Part shown: positions 36,647 through 45,714 of the stretch, one piece after another | Layout: each line of letters starts with the position of its first letter | Numbering within the stretch: the stretch's first letter is position 1 | Origin: Bacteroidota bacterium | GTDB taxonomy: Bacteria; Bacteroidota; Ignavibacteria; UBA10030; SZUA-254 | Reading direction: 5' to 3' | DNA length: 64,000 nucleotides | NCBI GenBank assembly: GCA_044449065.1 | Contig: JBIOHP010000002.1 | Span: 117,462 to 181,461 of the forward strand | Notes under the pieces: model-generated | What the model was told of the DNA's origin: nothing | Database searches by the model: none | What the model saw: only the letters and a program-made list of their open reading frames with translations | Position numbers and translations under genes: made by a program

Positions 36647-36721
36647 CGGGATGTAGCGCAGCTCGGCTAGCGCGCCTGCCTTGGGCGCAGGAGGTCCCGG
36701 GTTCAAATCCCGGCATCCCGA
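36647..36721 (+). tRNA. tRNA-Pro (anticodon TGG)
   Basis: Cloverleaf folded by hand: acceptor CGGGATG/CATCCCG, D-arm GCGC/GCGC, anticodon stem CCTGC/GCAGG with loop CTTGGGC (anticodon UGG), T-arm CCGGG-TTCAAAT-CCCGG, discriminator A. CCA is not encoded. Confidence 0.85.
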
Positions 36722-37016
36722 CTATCGTTGTATTTATCGAGACGACAAAAACTCAAGATGGTGACGCTTCTTAATATCTCGAAAACAACCTGAGTGATGC
36801 AACCCACATCGTATTGTGTATGCTATCGGGAGGGGAAAGTGTAAAAATCAGCGTCTATTCTGACATTTTCCGGTAACTCCCAAAGATTAAACGCAGGTCA
36901 GTATTACCGGTCACCTTCATTCTTGCTTTTATTCTGCGTTTTCGTTAATTTGGCACACGTACTTACAATTAAACTATTTTTAAAATTATGATTACAATAT
37001 CACAGAAGGAGAATCC

Positions 37017-40693: not shown

Positions 40694-41134
40694 ATGGAAG
40701 AATGAGAGGTCGCTCCGAAAATAGATAAGTCTTTTGGGAGCAACCTCTTGGAGTTTAATGGTGAGGGAACGTTGATATTCAATCCTGCCTGTTTTTTAAA
40801 CCTATCGAATTCGATGGGTTTAAAAAGAGGTTTTTGGATTTTGCTATTTCTTTGAATATACCAAGATTTAATCTCTCACAAATTCCTTAAAATCGACGTA
40901 TATTCAACAATATTTTGATTTTCATTAAATTTTACTTGACAAAATCTTGATACTTTCGTAAATTCTTAAGTATTTTTGCAGGGTATAATCGATACATGCA
41001 CTTTGTATCGATGGGGTTATACATTCATTTAAATAATTTCACTTAATGGCGAGTACGCTTTTTTAGGATAGGGATTATTTCATTTCGCCATAAAAAATAT
41101 TTTAAAATTCTTTCAAAAAAATTAAAGCAGACAT

Positions 41135-41302
41135 ATGAGCACATGTAAGGAATGTAAAGGTAAAGGTTCCGCACAATGTCCAAAATGTCATGGGACTGGG
41201 CGTCTTGGAGGTGGAATATTAAGTTCATCATATCAATGCAACAATTGTAATGGTTCCGGCAAGGTAAAATGCGGCGTTTGCAATGGTAAAGGTAACATTT
41301 GA
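41135..41302 (+). CDS. Mini zinc-ribbon protein with four CxxCxGxG repeats (DnaJ cysteine-rich-domain-like), 55 aa; missed by the ORF track (under 60 aa)
   Basis: MSTCKECKGKGSAQCPKCHGTGRLGGGILSSSYQCNNCNGSGKVKCGVCNGKGNI read directly. Four evenly spaced CxxCxGxG motifs. First gene of the AT-rich island. Confidence 0.5.
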   Translation: MSTCKECKGKGSAQCPKCHGTGRLGGGILSSSYQCNNCNGSGKVKCGVCNGKGNI

Positions 41303-41762
41303 AGTCAATGAAATAGTTAGGAAAATATTTTTGAAAATCGAAGAAATAATTAAATATTTAAAATCTCGTTATACGGCTAATTTTCGTCAGGATTCACCTA
41401 CTTATTGGAGAGTAGAGGTAATGACAACGGAAGGGCGATCACAAGTTGTACATTTGATATACAAGAAAATAATTTTGGCGGGCCAAGATTTATCGAGGCT
41501 GATTGCTGAGAGTCCCATAGGACCTTTATACAAGCACTTCAATTATGAAACCATTTTGAGGAAAAACGCGGAATTAGATGTAGGGGCAATATGCATTGAA
41601 GATCTTAAAAATGAAGAAAATTTATTTGTTTCCTACTTGACCCTCCGCTCAACTCATCTTGTGCCAACTGCTGATTATGAGGAGATACAAGAATTGATAG
41701 AGAAAACAGCTTTTGTCGCTGATCAATTAGAGAAAGAGATTTATGCAAGAGACTATCACTGA
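41283..41762 (+). CDS. Hypothetical soluble protein (island gene 2)
   Basis: 159 aa ORF. The start overlaps the last 20 nt of the zinc-ribbon ORF in another frame. No motif recognised. Start uncertain. Confidence 0.4.
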   Translation: MVKVTFEVNEIVRKIFLKIEEIIKYLKSRYTANFRQDSPTYWRVEVMTTEGRSQVVHLIYKKIILAGQDLSRLIAESPIGPLYKHFNYETILRKNAELDVGAICIEDLKNEENLFVSYLTLRSTHLVPTADYEEIQELIEKTAFVADQLEKEIYARDYH

Positions 41763-41784
41763 ATTCTTATAAAAGGAGAATATC

Positions 41785-42801
41785 ATGTTTCGCTATCTTT
41801 ATTTTTTCATTCGATTTCGTCAATATTTTAAAAATGACAAAGGATTATCCGAATTTGCAGACAGATGTCTGAACTGGTTAATCGAAAAATCTGCCATAAA
41901 AGCTGGAATTTATATAGAAAAAAACGAAGAACTCAAAGATGAGAAAAAAAATCTAATTTTACGTAGTGAAGATATAAATAAAAAGGCAATGCTCGAAAAT
42001 GATGATTTTTTCACTGTGAGAAAGAAATATCGTACACAAACTTTTATTATTGGAGTAATAATAATCGCAGAAATGTTTTTAAATTACATTTCAACACTTA
42101 TTTTCATCAACGGGGAAGATTTGATCTTCACCTTCATACGATGGGGAATTGCAATTGTATTAACTGGTGGCGGAATTATTGTATCGGAGAAATTGATCGA
42201 ATCAGTCTTGCCGATAACAAAAAAGGAAAAAAAAGATATTCCAAACAGATCTACCCCAGTTATTATATTGTGGTCAATTTTACTCATAGGGGTTGAAATA
42301 GCCATAATGGGAGTTTCAGAAACTAGAGCAACCGATATTGAGGGTGGCCATACCGGTGGTGTGTTGTATTATGGGTTCATTATACTTTCAATGGTATTGC
42401 CTCTTATTGCAGGTGCGGCTCGATGGGATATTATGCATTATTTAGATGCGTATAAAAATACACTCTTACATCGAAAAATTCAGGAGAGATTGCATAAAAT
42501 AGAGACGATACTACGAAGAAATGAAGAACATAAGTTGCAATATTTTAAAATTCAAAGTGTAGTATTCTGGGACATTTTCAGCGAATTTAAGACATTTAAA
42601 GAAAACTATGACAAGAAGAAAGGACTGAAAACCGAAGATCTATCTTCTCATTTTGCCTGTAACAATGATACATTTCAACTCGAAGCCGATAAGAGATACG
42701 AGAAGGATCCTCGCACACATTCCGCAAGTCATATTCAAAAATTGACAATATCTGATAAATCTGTTGGAGATAAAATTGGACAATCAGCCTTTCAGGAATG
42801 A
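41785..42801 (+). CDS. Hypothetical membrane protein (about 4 TM central block, soluble N- and C-terminal parts) (island gene 3)
   Basis: 338 aa. Hydrophobic segments FIIGVIIIAEMFLNYISTLIFI, IAIVLTGGGIIVS, VIILWSILLIGVEIAIMGV, VLYYGFIILSMVLPLIAGA. RBS GGAG 8 nt upstream. The stop overlaps the next start (ATGA). Confidence 0.5.
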   Translation: MFRYLYFFIRFRQYFKNDKGLSEFADRCLNWLIEKSAIKAGIYIEKNEELKDEKKNLILRSEDINKKAMLENDDFFTVRKKYRTQTFIIGVIIIAEMFLNYISTLIFINGEDLIFTFIRWGIAIVLTGGGIIVSEKLIESVLPITKKEKKDIPNRSTPVIILWSILLIGVEIAIMGVSETRATDIEGGHTGGVLYYGFIILSMVLPLIAGAARWDIMHYLDAYKNTLLHRKIQERLHKIETILRRNEEHKLQYFKIQSVVFWDIFSEFKTFKENYDKKKGLKTEDLSSHFACNNDTFQLEADKRYEKDPRTHSASHIQKLTISDKSVGDKIGQSAFQE

Positions 42802-43664
42802 GGTTTGAGAGATTTATGAGCAAGATAATAATTTGTTACTTAGGTGTTTTGCTGATAGGCTTTTCCATCCTAAATATTGGATGCCAAACCAAGATTGATA
42901 GACGTTTGAATTGTATATGTTTGATTGATTACTCTGGCAGCCTGAGCGATGAAACGCTTCAGAGGTATATACACATTATTAGTTCTGATGTTTTGTCAAA
43001 TTTGAACATCAAGGACCGTTTAATAGTTTTGCCAATCGATGAAGGAGCAAAGACAGAAGCTGTTAAACTAGTCTATGAGGATTTCTCTGAAAAAAAATAT
43101 TCTAAAACATCGGATGGATTCACACACGCTAGCGATAGCACAATGAAGCGATTTCATGATTATCTTGAGCAATTAAAACCTCAACTTATGATCCAATTGG
43201 ATTCACAAAAAGTCGTTCGCAGTAAATTCACATACTTTACTGATATAATGGCAGCATTGGAACAGTCAGAAGGGTTATTGGAAACAAATGAAGAAGATAA
43301 TTTTACAACGATTTTCAACAGATTTATTACCGGGCGCAATAAATTGGTTTCCGAAAATGTAATCATCCTTTTTTCAGATATGATTCATGAATCAAGTGAG
43401 TATAATTTTAATAAACCCAACGGCTGCGATTCCAAAGAGGCAAGCTCAATTATTAACAATCTCGTCCAAAATAAAAGAATGCCAAACTTGAAGGGAAGTA
43501 AGATATTTGTTGATGGACGAACTGGACATTCGAATCGTATGGTCGAAAACATACGATCATTTTGGAGCAAGTACTTTAAAGAATCTCATGCAGACCTCAT
43601 TGCTTATGATTTCGATATTGGCAATCAAATTGTTTCATTTTTAAATAATCAACGAGTTAAATAA
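42798..43664 (+). CDS. Secreted or lipoprotein with a von Willebrand factor A-like domain (island gene 4)
   Basis: Signal peptide ending ...LIGFSILNIGC. MIDAS-like LIDYSGSLSD (DxSGS). Later VIILFSDMIHE resembles the VWA iiLlTDG strand. An alternative start is at the second ATG, 42816. Confidence 0.5.
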   Translation: MRFERFMSKIIICYLGVLLIGFSILNIGCQTKIDRRLNCICLIDYSGSLSDETLQRYIHIISSDVLSNLNIKDRLIVLPIDEGAKTEAVKLVYEDFSEKKYSKTSDGFTHASDSTMKRFHDYLEQLKPQLMIQLDSQKVVRSKFTYFTDIMAALEQSEGLLETNEEDNFTTIFNRFITGRNKLVSENVIILFSDMIHESSEYNFNKPNGCDSKEASSIINNLVQNKRMPNLKGSKIFVDGRTGHSNRMVENIRSFWSKYFKESHADLIAYDFDIGNQIVSFLNNQRVK

Positions 43665-44022: not shown

Positions 44023-44745
44023 GTGGGTATCCTCAAAATATTCTTTCATTACCAGGGATGGGAGCCATTTGTTTTTTCACTTTCTCCATTTTTTACGAGC
44101 GTTTTAACTGGTATTGTTTTTTTGATAGGATTCATTCTTGCGGGGGTAATGACGGATTATAAAGAATCTGAAAAAATACCGGGCGAGATCTTGACTAGTC
44201 TCCAGACTATCTGGCTCGAGACATCGTTAATACACAAGAAAAATCCGCCAGCGGCGATGTCCTTGCGCAAGAAAGTTGTGGAATTTACAGCAATCCTGCA
44301 AACTGATTTTCTCGTGCGACGGGAAGAACGAACAGCCTTCCAGTTGCTCGACTCATTCTCCGAAGAATTTGAACTATTATACGATACTCTTCCACCCCCC
44401 TTTCTAGTCCGGTTAAAAAATGAACAAGCTGCTCTAAGGAAACTTCTTGTGCGAATCAAGGTCATACGCGATACGCACTTCTCTCACAACGTATATTTCG
44501 TAATCAAAAGTACGGCTGCTGGATTCGTTACCGGATTGCTTCTGTTAAAAATGGAACCGTTCGCGGAAGGTATATTTTTTCTCTGTCTATATGTTTATAT
44601 GTTAGTTTCCGTTATTATATTAATTAGGGATATGGATGATCCGTTTGAATATTCGGATAACATTGAAAAAATTGATGAAATTGATTTTAAGATACTGTTT
44701 GACTATGCACAGAATTTAGGTAACAAAATAGCGTTCGATGACTGA
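44023..44745 (+). CDS. Hypothetical membrane protein (2 N-terminal + 2 C-terminal TM helices around a soluble helical domain) (island gene 5)
   Basis: 240 aa. GTG start (no in-frame ATG/TTG upstream back to the stop at 43915). No motif recognised. Confidence 0.4.
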   Translation: MGILKIFFHYQGWEPFVFSLSPFFTSVLTGIVFLIGFILAGVMTDYKESEKIPGEILTSLQTIWLETSLIHKKNPPAAMSLRKKVVEFTAILQTDFLVRREERTAFQLLDSFSEEFELLYDTLPPPFLVRLKNEQAALRKLLVRIKVIRDTHFSHNVYFVIKSTAAGFVTGLLLLKMEPFAEGIFFLCLYVYMLVSVIILIRDMDDPFEYSDNIEKIDEIDFKILFDYAQNLGNKIAFDD

Positions 44746-44822
44746 CCGGTAATTCACTAATGTATAGCAAACAATGATGTGATTTCTTCATTCCTCCTCG
44801 ATAAGGAATTTTAATCTAAGTA

Positions 44823-45536
44823 ATGCGAGAAATAATAGATGGACTCAAAGAAGGATTTCAATTTACAGTAACTTTCCACCCACACCTTGAGTTAGATAAA
44901 GTGCTTCTCGGTACTTCTGGATTATCGAATTTTCTAATTCTGATGACATTAGGCGGTTTGATAGCGGCTATTTATTTTTCAGTTGAACAATCGAAAATTA
45001 TTGAAAGCGTTCCATTCGGAAAGCCGGGCTTTGTGACTGCACTTGCATGTCTTGCGTTAGCGTGGTCCGGTTTAGCCTCTATCGCTTTGACTTTTTTTTA
45101 CATCATAGGTTCACTCACTGGTTGTTTAATAGGAGTCCGCAATGGCACGCTGCTCCGCAGGAATATCTTCTTTGGGGTTTCGATGCTCGCTGGTATTTTT
45201 ATAGGAGGAATCCTCATCGTTTTAGCACCAATAAATTTAGGAAAAACGGTCCAGCTTATCATACTTTGTTGGCTTGCGTGGGATATGGTACAAGAAGGGC
45301 TTCGAACAATTAATATGGAACGTTTTTATCATCTCTATATATTCTTGATGATAGGAGGAGCCATTTCGCTGGTTTTTTTTGACCCAAAAATTTATTGCCT
45401 ACTGATCGTTAAGGCATCAGAGACAACTTCGATGCGAATTGTTTATACCGATGGCTTCAAGAACCTGATGATTGCTTTTTCCTATACTCCAATTTTAGGT
45501 TGGGTTATCGGATTTTGGAACGAAAAACCATATTGA
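44823..45536 (+). CDS. Hypothetical polytopic membrane protein (about 6 TM) (island gene 6)
   Basis: 237 aa, strongly hydrophobic throughout. Confidence 0.4.
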   Translation: MREIIDGLKEGFQFTVTFHPHLELDKVLLGTSGLSNFLILMTLGGLIAAIYFSVEQSKIIESVPFGKPGFVTALACLALAWSGLASIALTFFYIIGSLTGCLIGVRNGTLLRRNIFFGVSMLAGIFIGGILIVLAPINLGKTVQLIILCWLAWDMVQEGLRTINMERFYHLYIFLMIGGAISLVFFDPKIYCLLIVKASETTSMRIVYTDGFKNLMIAFSYTPILGWVIGFWNEKPY

Positions 45537-45714
45537 GTACATTTTTTCATTCTTTTTTTAAACAAATTTGTTCGGAAATTAGATGGTAACGATAATTATT
45601 TCAAAATTTTTTATCCTTGACAATCTGTACTTTTTCCCAAGGGAAAAACCTGCCTGCCCAAATTTGTTTGACTTTCCCCCTAAAATTTCGTAATTTTTGA
45701 TACTTTTTAACATC

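What the first reader, a model, noticed from the sequence alone, without database searches (positions are those of the whole stretch)
41135..41302. Unannotated 55-aa protein made of four CxxCxGxG repeats (stand-alone DnaJ-type zinc-finger module)
Reading 41135-41302 gives MSTCKECKGKGSAQCPKCHGTGRLGGGILSSSYQCNNCNGSGKVKCGVCNGKGNI, which has exactly four CxxCxGxG units, the signature of the DnaJ cysteine-rich domain that binds two Zn. It is below the 60-aa cutoff of the ORF track. It is the first gene of the AT-rich island and its 3' end overlaps the next ORF. Stand-alone DnaJ-CR-like mini-proteins are unusual. It could act as a zinc-dependent holdase or adaptor, or as an anti-sigma-like regulator for the downstream membrane proteins.
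Basis: seen in the sequence. Interest (0 to 1): 0.6.

Follow-up and report, generated by a model that had tools for sequence, protein, structure and literature searches.

The report
Unannotated stand-alone two-zinc DnaJ-type mini-protein
A real but unannotated 55-residue gene encodes a minimal DnaJ/BSD2-type double zinc finger from a widespread, uncharacterised family of free-standing mini-proteins, which here heads an operon for a conserved membrane system and elsewhere sits beside chaperone and conflict-system genes.

Summary
Window 41135-41302 (+) encodes a 55-aa protein with four CxxCxGxG units. It is the only such motif-bearing segment in the 64-kb window, and random sequence gives at most one motif per segment.

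It is a genuine gene. More than 50 cluster representatives of 52-70 aa and 31 genome loci from at least 10 phyla share the length, the eight Cys and the MATC start. Synonymous sites are saturated, and dN/dS is about 0.05-0.14 where computable. The GenBank MAG record skips it: the flanking genes carry consecutive tags ACHQQQ_01765 and ACHQQQ_01770.

The nearest solved relatives by sequence are the DnaJ cysteine-rich domain and plant BSD2, but every curated family threshold is missed.

The genes downstream are a YbjN/T3SS-chaperone-like protein, a 4-TM protein and a divergent vWA lipoprotein. The 4-TM/vWA pair is conserved in about 30 loci. The zinc finger accompanies it in only 3 of about 17 evaluable loci, in three different gene orders.

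Elsewhere the mini-protein sits tightly in operons with Hsp70/GrpE/J-domain, TPR-CHAT/TIR, DO-GTPase, TerB/TerD, vWA and RHS genes.

My best reading is a Zn-stabilised protein-binding adaptor or co-chaperone subunit acting in trans. This is inferred, not shown. "Unusual" is overstated, and the anti-sigma idea has no support.

The parts
41135..41302 (+). Unannotated 55-aa gene for a stand-alone two-zinc (4 x CxxCxGxG) DnaJ-CR/BSD2-type mini-protein. It is basic (pI about 9.2) and has no signal peptide or TM segment.
   Evidence: Translation. Chance test. Pfam DnaJ_CXXCXGXG E 2.2e-6, below the cutoff. Family of 52-58 aa homologues at 45-82% identity. Purifying selection. Not annotated. pI and hydropathy.
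41283..41762 (+). Second gene (ACHQQQ_01770): a cytoplasmic, acidic protein with a YbjN / type III secretion chaperone-like fold. It is 159 aa from the ATG at 41283, or 143 aa if the TTG at 41331 is the true start.
   Evidence: 48 homologues and no Pfam hit. AlphaFold2 pLDDT 90.3. Foldseek PDB hits: 2plg E 6.5e-4 TM 0.62, PA14_16140, SycE, SigE, SpcU, YbjN, AmyR. pI 5.4.
41785..42801 (+). Third gene (ACHQQQ_01775): a 338-aa inner-membrane protein with about 4 TM helices (roughly residues 84-217), flanked by basic N- and C-terminal soluble regions. It is a core component of the conserved system.
   Evidence: Hydropathy. No Pfam, NCBIfam, PHROG or PADLOC hit. Homologues lie next to the vWA gene in about 25 loci.
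42798..43664 (+). Fourth gene (ACHQQQ_01780): a 288-aa lipoprotein (lipobox ...IGC) with a divergent von Willebrand A fold and a conserved MIDAS-like DxSGS...T/D...D motif. Its start overlaps the stop of the TM gene by 4 nt. It is a core component.
   Evidence: Alignments A4 and A7 with invariant D44, S46, D194. AlphaFold2 pLDDT 93.4. All 50 top Foldseek PDB hits are vWA/I-domains, E 3e-5 to 9e-4. No Pfam hit.
40792..40827 (+). Terminator-like palindromic hairpin after the upstream gene ACHQQQ_01765. It marks the end of the preceding transcription unit.
   Evidence: Consensus scan and inverted repeat I7. The number of such sites in the region is not above the shuffled expectation.
40936..40964 (+). 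Best sigma-70-like promoter match (TTGACA-17-TAAATT, 10 of 12) in the 440-nt gap upstream of the mini-gene. It is a candidate operon promoter only.
   Evidence: Promoter-like sites in the region are not above chance (22 found against 19.2 +/- 4.8 expected).
44023..45536 (+). Two further TM-protein ORFs (240 aa and 237 aa, the latter ACHQQQ_01790) within the same AT-rich island. They are not conserved with the system elsewhere, so their membership is doubtful.
   Evidence: Absent from the homologous loci.

Best explanation
Window 41135-41302 is a genuine, translated-type gene that annotation missed. It encodes the minimal form of the DnaJ cysteine-rich / BSD2-type module: four CxxCxGxG units in 55 residues. 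By homology these should fold into a V- or hairpin-shaped finger holding two Zn(Cys)4 centres (in DnaJ, units 1+4 and 2+3 form the two centres). It belongs to a widespread, uncharacterised family of free-standing 52-58-aa proteins. The proposed mechanism is inferred. The protein is a cytoplasmic, Zn-stabilised protein-binding subunit that acts in trans, as the CR does inside DnaJ or as BSD2 does for Rubisco. It would grip a partner polypeptide encoded beside it and so help to assemble, hold or gate that partner. In this locus it is co-transcribed with an acidic YbjN/T3SS-chaperone-like protein, a 4-TM protein and a vWA lipoprotein. The likely partners are the chaperone-like protein or the cytoplasmic tails of the TM protein. 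It is an optional accessory of that system, not a core part.
For: Shown: the ORF and its motifs are real and non-random. The family is conserved in length, in the eight Cys and in the N-terminus. It occurs in 31 species-level genomes across Bacteroidota, Ignavibacteriales, Acidobacteriota, Chlorobiaceae, Planctomycetota, Desulfobacterota, CPR and an archaeon. pN is 0.06-0.22 against pS 0.5-1.0, and dN/dS is 0.05-0.14 where computable. The family profile matches the DnaJ CR (1exk, 3.9e-8) and BSD2 over its full length with the same compact spacing (6ekb/9ci1, about 2e-5). There is no signal peptide or TM segment. The gaps and overlaps are operon-like: 41302/41283 or 41331, 41762/41785, and a 4-nt overlap at 42798-42801, with no terminator between the genes. 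Linkage to the core system recurs in three different gene orders: window ZnF-YbjN-TM-vWA, L078 ZnF-TM-vWA, and L021 TM-vWA-ZnF. In most of the 37 family loci the gene lies 1-60 nt from a co-directional neighbour. Neighbours include Hsp70, GrpE, ClpB-like and J-domain proteins that lack their own CR (L028, L033, L042, L039). That is the setting in which a trans-acting CR would make sense. Holdase activity of stand-alone four-motif proteins is documented for ZnJ2/BSD2 (PMC5818400).
Against: No binding, zinc content or expression was measured. The core TM+vWA system lacks the zinc finger in about 14 of 17 evaluable loci, including the three closest homologues of the YbjN-like gene. So the mini-protein is dispensable for that system. 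Its neighbours are so varied (RHS, TerB, TerD, CHAT/TIR, DO-GTPase, NUDIX, PrpD, amidohydrolase) that no single partner family explains the distribution. No curated family threshold is reached. The vWA domain is extracytoplasmic, so it cannot be a direct partner.
Confidence: 0.45

Rival explanations
1. Thiol/zinc redox switch. The two Zn(Cys)4 centres act as a sensor that releases zinc and unfolds under oxidative, electrophile or metal stress, as in Hsp33 or zinc-binding anti-sigma factors. This switches the adjacent membrane, Ter-like or conflict system on or off.
For: All eight Cys are invariant. The gene recurs next to TerB (L036, L038, L041) and TerD/vWA clusters (L014), which are linked to tellurite and metal stress. 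The DnaJ CR has documented redox activity (PMC5818400; PMC8262869 abstract).
Against: Invariant Cys are equally expected for a purely structural zinc site. Most contexts have no obvious redox link. ZnJ2 chaperone activity was reported to be redox-independent (PMC5818400). Nothing in the window operon is redox-related.
Confidence: 0.17
2. Functionally independent small gene. The mini-protein is a self-contained, horizontally mobile gene, for example a general co-factor of the housekeeping DnaK system or a zinc buffer. It lands in variable or island regions, and its adjacency to the downstream genes has no functional meaning.
For: Neighbours are highly variable and some are plainly housekeeping: PrpD, amidohydrolase, NUDIX, tRNA synthetase. 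The downstream system mostly occurs without it. It lies at the edge of an AT-rich island.
Against: It was found beside the rare TM+vWA pair in three loci with three different gene orders. By my rough estimate this is very unlikely by chance for such a rare gene. Conserved pairs cross phyla: the 115-aa family in Bacteroidota, Ignavibacteriales, Saccharibacteria and Aminicenantes, and the 265-292-aa family in L008 and L033. Spacing to co-directional neighbours is typically 12-27 nt. There were no hits in plasmid or phage collections.
Confidence: 0.2
3. Small basic zinc-finger regulator that binds nucleic acid (DNA or mRNA leader) or an RNA-binding protein. This would resemble anti-TRAP or phage Q-like zinc fingers, and would control expression of the operon.
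For: Nearly all family members are basic, with pI 8.5-9.6. There are weak hits to anti-TRAP (NCBIfam 7e-4; PDB 3lcz 8.5e-3) and to PHROG 'antitermination protein Q-like' families (about 6e-3).
Against: These hits cover only one or two CxxC units and fall far below the cutoffs (19.6 bits against 65). The Zn(Cys)4 centres each carry -2, which reduces the net charge. No Rfam element or conserved leader was found upstream. The DnaJ-CR fold is not a known nucleic-acid binder.
Confidence: 0.1
4. Precursor of a ribosomally synthesised, post-translationally modified peptide with a Zn-tetracysteine anchor, like the cysimiditides.
For: Cysimiditide precursors are small proteins with CXXCXGXG motifs that bind Zn (bioRxiv 10.1101/2024.10.02.616296). 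One family locus (L033) has a radical-SAM-like gene two genes away.
Against: Cysimiditides have two motifs flanking a modified Asp, need an adjacent PIMT-type methyltransferase and are confined to Actinomycetota. Here there are four motifs, no conserved loop Asp and no modifying enzyme in the operon. The whole peptide is conserved across phyla instead of having a variable core.
Confidence: 0.03

Closest known systems
BSD2 / ZnJ2 (plant and algal chloroplast DnaJ-like zinc-finger proteins; Pfam BSD2_CRD PF25436)
   Same: The functional part is just a four-CxxCxGxG two-zinc module with no J-domain. The spacing between units is the same compact one: the family profile aligns positions 4-53 to BSD2 residues 17-70 (E 2.5e-5). 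It acts as a protein-binding holdase or assembly factor (PMC5818400).
   Different: BSD2 is eukaryotic and plastid-targeted, carries a transit peptide and extra sequence, and is dedicated to Rubisco. The window protein scores 22 bits against a 27-bit cutoff, comes from a Bacteroidota MAG, and sits in membrane or conflict-type operons with no Rubisco link.
Cysteine-rich (zinc-finger) domain of type I Hsp40 DnaJ (Pfam DnaJ_CXXCXGXG PF00684; PDB 1exk)
   Same: Four CxxCxGxG repeats, matched end to end to the 65-position profile (E 2.2e-6). It is the best solved sequence relative (3.9e-8). By homology it has two Zn(Cys)4 centres that bind substrates and cooperate with Hsp70.
   Different: The window protein is free-standing, not inserted between the J/G-F region and the C-terminal domains. 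The spacers are shorter (11/20/11 residues between the first Cys of successive units, against 17/22/14 in E. coli DnaJ from my own knowledge). The score is below the gathering cutoff (28.3 against 32.7).
Anti-TRAP (RtpA) of Bacillus (53 aa; PDB 3lcz)
   Same: It is a free-standing bacterial protein of about 53 aa with DnaJ-type CxxCxGxG zinc binding. It works purely by binding and inhibiting another protein (PMC2896485 abstract).
   Different: Anti-TRAP has only one zinc site (two motifs), forms trimers and dodecamers, is T-box regulated and targets TRAP. Similarity here is marginal (NCBIfam 19.6 bits against a cutoff of 65; PDB E 8.5e-3).
Cysimiditide precursors (Zn-tetracysteine RiPPs)
   Same: They are small ribosomal peptides with CXXCXGXG motifs that bind Zn.
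   Different: They have two motifs, a modified Asp and an obligatory methyltransferase partner, and occur in Actinomycetota only. None of these features applies here.
GAP1-N2 / DO-GTPase and Hsp70-GrpE conflict systems (Kaur et al. 2020, eLife, PMC7159879)
   Same: Several family members lie inside such gene clusters: L019 has DO-GTPase2 + GAP1-N2 + DO-GTPase2, and L042 has GrpE + Hsp70 + a zinc-ribbon cyclase.
   Different: A term search of the paper (DnaJ, Zn-ribbon, cysteine-rich, zinc) returned no passage describing a stand-alone CxxCxGxG mini-protein. The window locus has none of these NTPases.

Membership tests
DnaJ cysteine-rich domain (Pfam PF00684) | Four CxxCxGxG repeats | tested here: met
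   C4, C15, C35, C46 units. The profile is matched 1-65 of 65.
DnaJ cysteine-rich domain (Pfam PF00684) | Score at or above the curated gathering threshold | tested here: not met
   28.3 bits against 32.7.
DnaJ cysteine-rich domain (Pfam PF00684) | Embedded in a J-domain protein (J, G/F, CR, CTD architecture) | tested here: not met
   The ORF is 55 aa from stop to stop (58 codons), and homologues are 52-58 aa.
DnaJ cysteine-rich domain (Pfam PF00684) | Binds two zinc ions through eight Cys | not testable with these tools
   All eight Cys are invariant in 29 family members.
BSD2_CRD (Pfam PF25436) | Score above the curated threshold, and a plastid Rubisco-assembly context | tested here: not met
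   22 bits against 27. The source is a bacterial MAG and there is no Rubisco gene in the operon. The family profile nevertheless aligns to BSD2 over its full length.
Anti-TRAP (NCBIfam NF058604 RtpA) | Equivalog score, and a single Zn site of two motifs | tested here: not met
   19.6 bits against a cutoff of 65. There are four motifs here, not two.
Zinc-binding anti-sigma factors (ZAS) | HxxxCxxC motif and an adjacent cognate sigma-factor gene | tested here: not met
   There is no His-x3-Cys-x2-Cys in the peptide. No sigma factor lies among the operon genes.
Cysimiditide RiPP precursors | Two CXXCXGXG motifs flanking a modified Asp, plus an adjacent PIMT-like methyltransferase | tested here: not met
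   There are four motifs, no conserved loop Asp and no methyltransferase in the operon.
Uncharacterised stand-alone 4xCxxCxGxG mini-protein family (this work) | 52-58 aa, N-terminal M-[AST]-x-C, eight invariant Cys, spacing about 11/20/11, no other domain | tested here: met
   Alignment A1. Identity to members is 45-82%.
von Willebrand A domain (for the fourth gene, 42798-43664) | vWA Rossmann-like fold with a MIDAS DxSxS...T...D motif | tested here: met
   All top-50 Foldseek PDB hits are vWA/I-domains. D44-x-S46-G-S48, T148/D149 and D194 are conserved. Pfam VWA models give no hit, so it is a divergent member by fold only.
YbjN / type III secretion chaperone-like superfamily (for the second gene, 41283-41762) | alpha-beta(3-4)-alpha-beta(2)-alpha chaperone fold | tested here: met
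   The model has pLDDT 90. Hits: 2plg E 6.5e-4 TM 0.62, and SycE, SigE, SpcU, YbjN and AmyR at probability 0.95-1.0. There is no Pfam hit by sequence.

The most novel reading that the evidence does not exclude
The 55-aa protein represents a previously unrecognised, widely shared trans-acting 'DnaJ zinc-finger' subunit of prokaryotic conflict and stress systems. It would be a small Zn/redox-sensitive adaptor that couples non-canonical Hsp70/GrpE, vWA/Ter, CHAT/TIR and DO-GTPase effector modules to a common trigger, such as proteotoxic or phage-induced unfolding. The YbjN-like + 4-TM + vWA-lipoprotein set in this window would then be a new membrane-associated system of that kind.
Probability: 0.12. 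Interest if true: 0.7.

Novelty: new variant of a known kind. Interest (0 to 1): 0.42.

Why it matters
Small proteins below 60 aa are routinely missed. This one was skipped by the GenBank annotation even though it is strongly conserved across phyla. It shows that the DnaJ zinc-finger module circulates in prokaryotes as a free-standing gene of minimal size. So far this has been described for plant BSD2/ZnJ2 and, in half-size form, for Bacillus anti-TRAP. It is repeatedly wired into operons for Hsp70-type chaperones, vWA/Ter proteins and predicted conflict systems. If it proves to be a shared adaptor or trigger subunit, it would give a handle on how such systems recognise their signals. The work also defines an uncharacterised three-gene membrane system (YbjN-like, 4-TM, vWA lipoprotein). 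If it is only a generic holdase, the finding is a modest annotation and family-definition gain.

Tried and rejected
- The word-index homology search with the peptide found nothing. The exhaustive phmmer search was needed.
A 7-sequence alignment worked.
- PADLOC gave no credible hit for any island protein. NCBIfam and PHROGs gave only weak partial matches.
- Profile-profile comparison of the vWA-like protein with TerY-type vWA proteins matched only the first strand and the DxSGS motif (probability 3%). Its PDB sequence search gave spurious nanobody hits. Only fold search resolved it.
- The PDB profile search for the YbjN-like protein found nothing, as did the search for the 115-aa partner family.
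- HMM searches for remote homologues of the window's neighbours among the neighbours of other family members were negative. The hhalign comparison with the L024 neighbour was not significant.
- Rfam found nothing credible in the upstream region.
- Protein BLAST against plasmids and phages found nothing. One viral contig carries only a 34-aa half-module.
- The promoter and terminator scans were not above chance.
- No tRNA or integrase lies at the island. The 15-nt flanking direct repeat is probably chance.
- The anti-sigma and RiPP readings were rejected; see the membership tests.
- The opposite-strand ORF 41043-41231 was considered. It was rejected because conservation follows the + frame.

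Full report
**Observation**

Window 41135-41302 (+) reads ATG...TGA and translates to MSTCKECKGKGSAQCPKCHGTGRLGGGILSSSYQCNNCNGSGKVKCGVCNGKGNI, exactly as reported. It has four CxxCxGxG units, starting at C4, C15, C35 and C46.

In a six-frame scan of the whole 64-kb window, this is the only stop-to-stop segment with even one such motif, and it has four. In 200 first-order Markov random windows the mean was 0.21 motif-bearing segments per window, and no segment had more than one motif.

GC drops from about 0.45-0.53 to 0.33-0.35 between roughly 40.7 and 45.9 kb, and the ORF is the first one in that stretch.

The mechanical next ORF starts at the ATG at 41283 and overlaps by 20 nt. GenBank uses that start, giving 159 aa (P0001). 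Most homologues are 142-146 aa and align only from residue ~17, where a TTG (41331) lies. Others have unrelated N-terminal extensions. The overlap is therefore uncertain.

**Is it a gene?**

Yes.

- An exhaustive phmmer search of 1.84 billion cluster representatives gave 445 hits at E <= 1e-3. Of the best 150, 55 are proteins of 52-70 aa aligned end to end at 45-66% identity.
- Their alignment shows eight invariant or near-invariant Cys, conserved Gly, a conserved Pro after the third Cys, a typical M-A-T-C start, and a length confined to 53-57 aa.
- A pattern scan of 185,579 species genomes returned 31 close loci at 49-82% identity. They come from Bacteroidota, Ignavibacteriales, Acidobacteriota, Chlorobiaceae, Pirellulales, Desulfobacterota, Geobacteraceae, Chloroflexi, CPR phyla, Aminicenantes and a Methanoperedens archaeon.
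- Between the window gene and eight of these, nonsynonymous differences are 0.06-0.22 per site, while synonymous sites are saturated (0.5-1.0). Where dS can be computed, dN/dS is 0.05-0.14.

The gene is not annotated in the source record. The upstream gene is ACHQQQ_01765 and the next genes are ACHQQQ_01770, 01775 and 01780, so the tags are consecutive. The exact peptide is also absent from the 15-billion-protein collection that holds all of these neighbours.

**What it is**

- Pfam DnaJ_CXXCXGXG matches residues 4-53 to profile positions 1-65 of 65 (E 2.2e-6), but at 28.3 bits it is under the 32.7-bit cutoff.
- BSD2_CRD (22 bits against 27) and NCBIfam anti-TRAP (19.6 against 65) are also sub-threshold.
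- A profile of the family finds the E. coli DnaJ CR (1exk, 3.9e-8). It also finds plant BSD2 (6ekb and 9ci1, about 2e-5) over positions 4-53 with the same compact spacing, and marginally anti-TRAP (3lcz, 8.5e-3).

By homology, the protein is a minimal two-Zn(Cys)4 finger of the DnaJ-CR/BSD2 type. It has no signal peptide or TM segment, and it is basic, as are nearly all family members.

I could not predict its own structure, because both structure-prediction jobs went to the neighbours.

**Surroundings in the window**

Spacing is operon-like. The second gene ends at 41762 and the third starts at 41785. The third and fourth genes overlap by 4 nt (42798-42801). No terminator-like site lies between the genes.

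- **Gene 2 (143/159 aa).** It has 48 homologues and no Pfam hit. A pLDDT-90 model has the YbjN / type III secretion chaperone fold (2plg E 6.5e-4 TM 0.62; PA14_16140, SycE, SigE, SpcU, YbjN, AmyR). It is acidic, with pI 5.4.
- **Gene 3 (338 aa).** It has about four TM helices between basic soluble termini, and no family hit.
- **Gene 4 (288 aa).** It has a lipobox, a conserved DxSGS...T/D...D pattern and a pLDDT-93 model. The top 50 PDB matches of that model are all vWA or integrin I-domains. Sequence methods alone failed on it.

**Is the mini-protein part of that system?**

Only sometimes.

- The TM and vWA pair is conserved in about 30 fetched loci. The YbjN-like gene precedes it in about ten of them.
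- The zinc finger is present in three loci, in three different gene orders:
  - the window: ZnF-YbjN-TM-vWA;
  - L078: ZnF-TM-vWA;
  - L021: TM-vWA-ZnF.
- It is absent from the other roughly 14 loci with enough flank to judge. These include the three closest homologues of gene 2.
- For a gene this rare, three adjacencies in different orders are hard to explain by chance. That is my rough estimate, not a formal test.
- Two other core loci carry a different small Cys/His-rich ORF after the vWA gene (L006, L071). This hints at analogous replacement, but it is weak evidence.

**Contexts of the family elsewhere (37 loci)**

The gene usually lies 1-60 nt from a co-directional neighbour, often 12-27 nt downstream of it. 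The neighbours differ widely:

| Neighbour class | Loci |
|---|---|
| TPR-CHAT plus TIR | L007, L008 |
| TerD/vWA/TerY cluster | L014 |
| TerB | L036, L038, L041 |
| DO-GTPase2 + GAP1-N2 + DO-GTPase2 | L019 |
| Hsp70, with GrpE or a ClpB-like ATPase | L028, L033, L042 |
| J-domain protein plus vWA | L039 |
| RHS proteins (Chlorobiaceae) | L025, L026, L034 |
| Cross-phylum 115-aa partner family | L017, L018, L032, L040 |
| 265-292-aa partner shared by two different clusters | L008, L033 |
| Housekeeping genes | several |

Several of these match gene sets described as NTP-dependent conflict systems (PMC7159879). A term search of that paper found no description of a stand-alone CxxCxGxG protein.

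The family is essentially absent from the plasmid, phage and viral-contig collections.

**Mechanism**

What is shown:
- a conserved, selected, cytoplasmic-type mini-protein with the DnaJ-CR signature;
- operonic placement;
- recurrent but facultative linkage to a TM/vWA system;
- recurrent placement next to Hsp70-type and conflict-type genes.

What is inferred: it works as the CR does inside DnaJ and as BSD2/ZnJ2 do alone (holdase activity, PMC5818400). That is, it would be a zinc-stabilised finger that binds a partner polypeptide, here supplied in trans to whichever system it is attached to. In this window the plausible partners are the acidic chaperone-like protein or the cytoplasmic tails of the TM protein.

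I put this reading at about 0.45. The rivals are:
- a zinc/thiol redox switch (about 0.17);
- a functionally independent gene (about 0.2);
- a basic nucleic-acid or regulator-binding factor (about 0.1);
- a RiPP precursor of the cysimiditide type (about 0.03).

The anti-sigma idea fails on both motif and context.

**Novelty and verdict**

The domain is known, and stand-alone relatives are known (BSD2/ZnJ2, and anti-TRAP at half size).

The new points are as follows:
- the prokaryotic 55-aa family appears uncharacterised and reaches no curated family threshold;
- this copy is unannotated;
- its pattern of association with vWA/Ter, Hsp70/GrpE, CHAT/TIR and DO-GTPase genes is not mentioned in the papers I could search.

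I rate it a new variant of a known kind, of moderate interest.

Noticed in passing
window 41283-43664: There is a conserved, uncharacterised membrane system: a YbjN/T3SS-chaperone-like protein, a 4-TM protein and a divergent vWA lipoprotein with an intact MIDAS-like motif. It occurs in about 30 metagenomic and genomic loci. None of the three proteins has a Pfam, NCBIfam or PADLOC assignment.
   Followed up: partly
L006 3053-3217 and L071 4719-4874: Two homologous core loci carry a different small Cys/His-rich ORF (54 aa and 51 aa, RING/treble-clef-like pattern) downstream of the vWA gene. This may be an analogous replacement of the CxxCxGxG mini-protein. The two are only weakly similar to each other.
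   Followed up: partly
L017 5637-5984, L018 5636-5983, L032 5726-5980, L040 6209-6577: A 115-aa protein family of unknown fold is paired with the zinc-finger gene in four phyla, upstream in three loci and downstream in one. It includes the two closest relatives of the window's mini-protein. It has no Pfam or PDB sequence match.
   Followed up: partly
L008 4068-4946 and L033 5143-5940: A 265-292-aa protein, 84% identical between the two loci, immediately precedes the zinc finger in both. One locus is a TPR-CHAT/TIR cluster and the other an Hsp70/radical-SAM-like cluster. The two-gene module therefore appears to move between systems.
   Followed up: no
L014 5257-5442 and L039 3501-3704 (paralogue at L014 1020-1202): A homologous 61-67-aa single-TM mini-protein directly follows the zinc-finger gene in two unrelated loci. 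Both loci also encode vWA proteins.
   Followed up: no
L012 5338-5547: In this locus the zinc finger is followed by a second, unrelated 69-aa Cys-rich ORF with several CxxC pairs.
   Followed up: no
L087 5019-5123 (IMG/VR contig): A 34-aa half-module with two CxxCxGxG units (one predicted Zn site) lies between a 951-aa ORF and a 285-aa ORF, both of unknown function, on a viral contig.
   Followed up: no
window 40942-40956 and 45692-45706: An imperfect 15-nt direct repeat (87% identical) brackets the AT-rich island (spacing 4750 nt). No integrase lies nearby, and the only tRNA in the window (tRNA-Pro, 36647-36722) is about 4 kb upstream, not at the island edge. The repeat is probably a chance match in AT-rich DNA.
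   Followed up: partly
window 44023-45536: Two more TM-protein ORFs (240 aa and 237 aa) lie in the same AT-rich island. They have no family hits and no counterparts in the homologous loci. The 240-aa form from the GTG start is not the annotated one.
   Followed up: partly
one search hits such as P0050, P0057, P0070, P0085: Many longer proteins (150-1084 aa) consist of several tandem copies of the same two-zinc module. Some are fused to TPR, SH3_3 or DUF5678 regions.
   Followed up: partly
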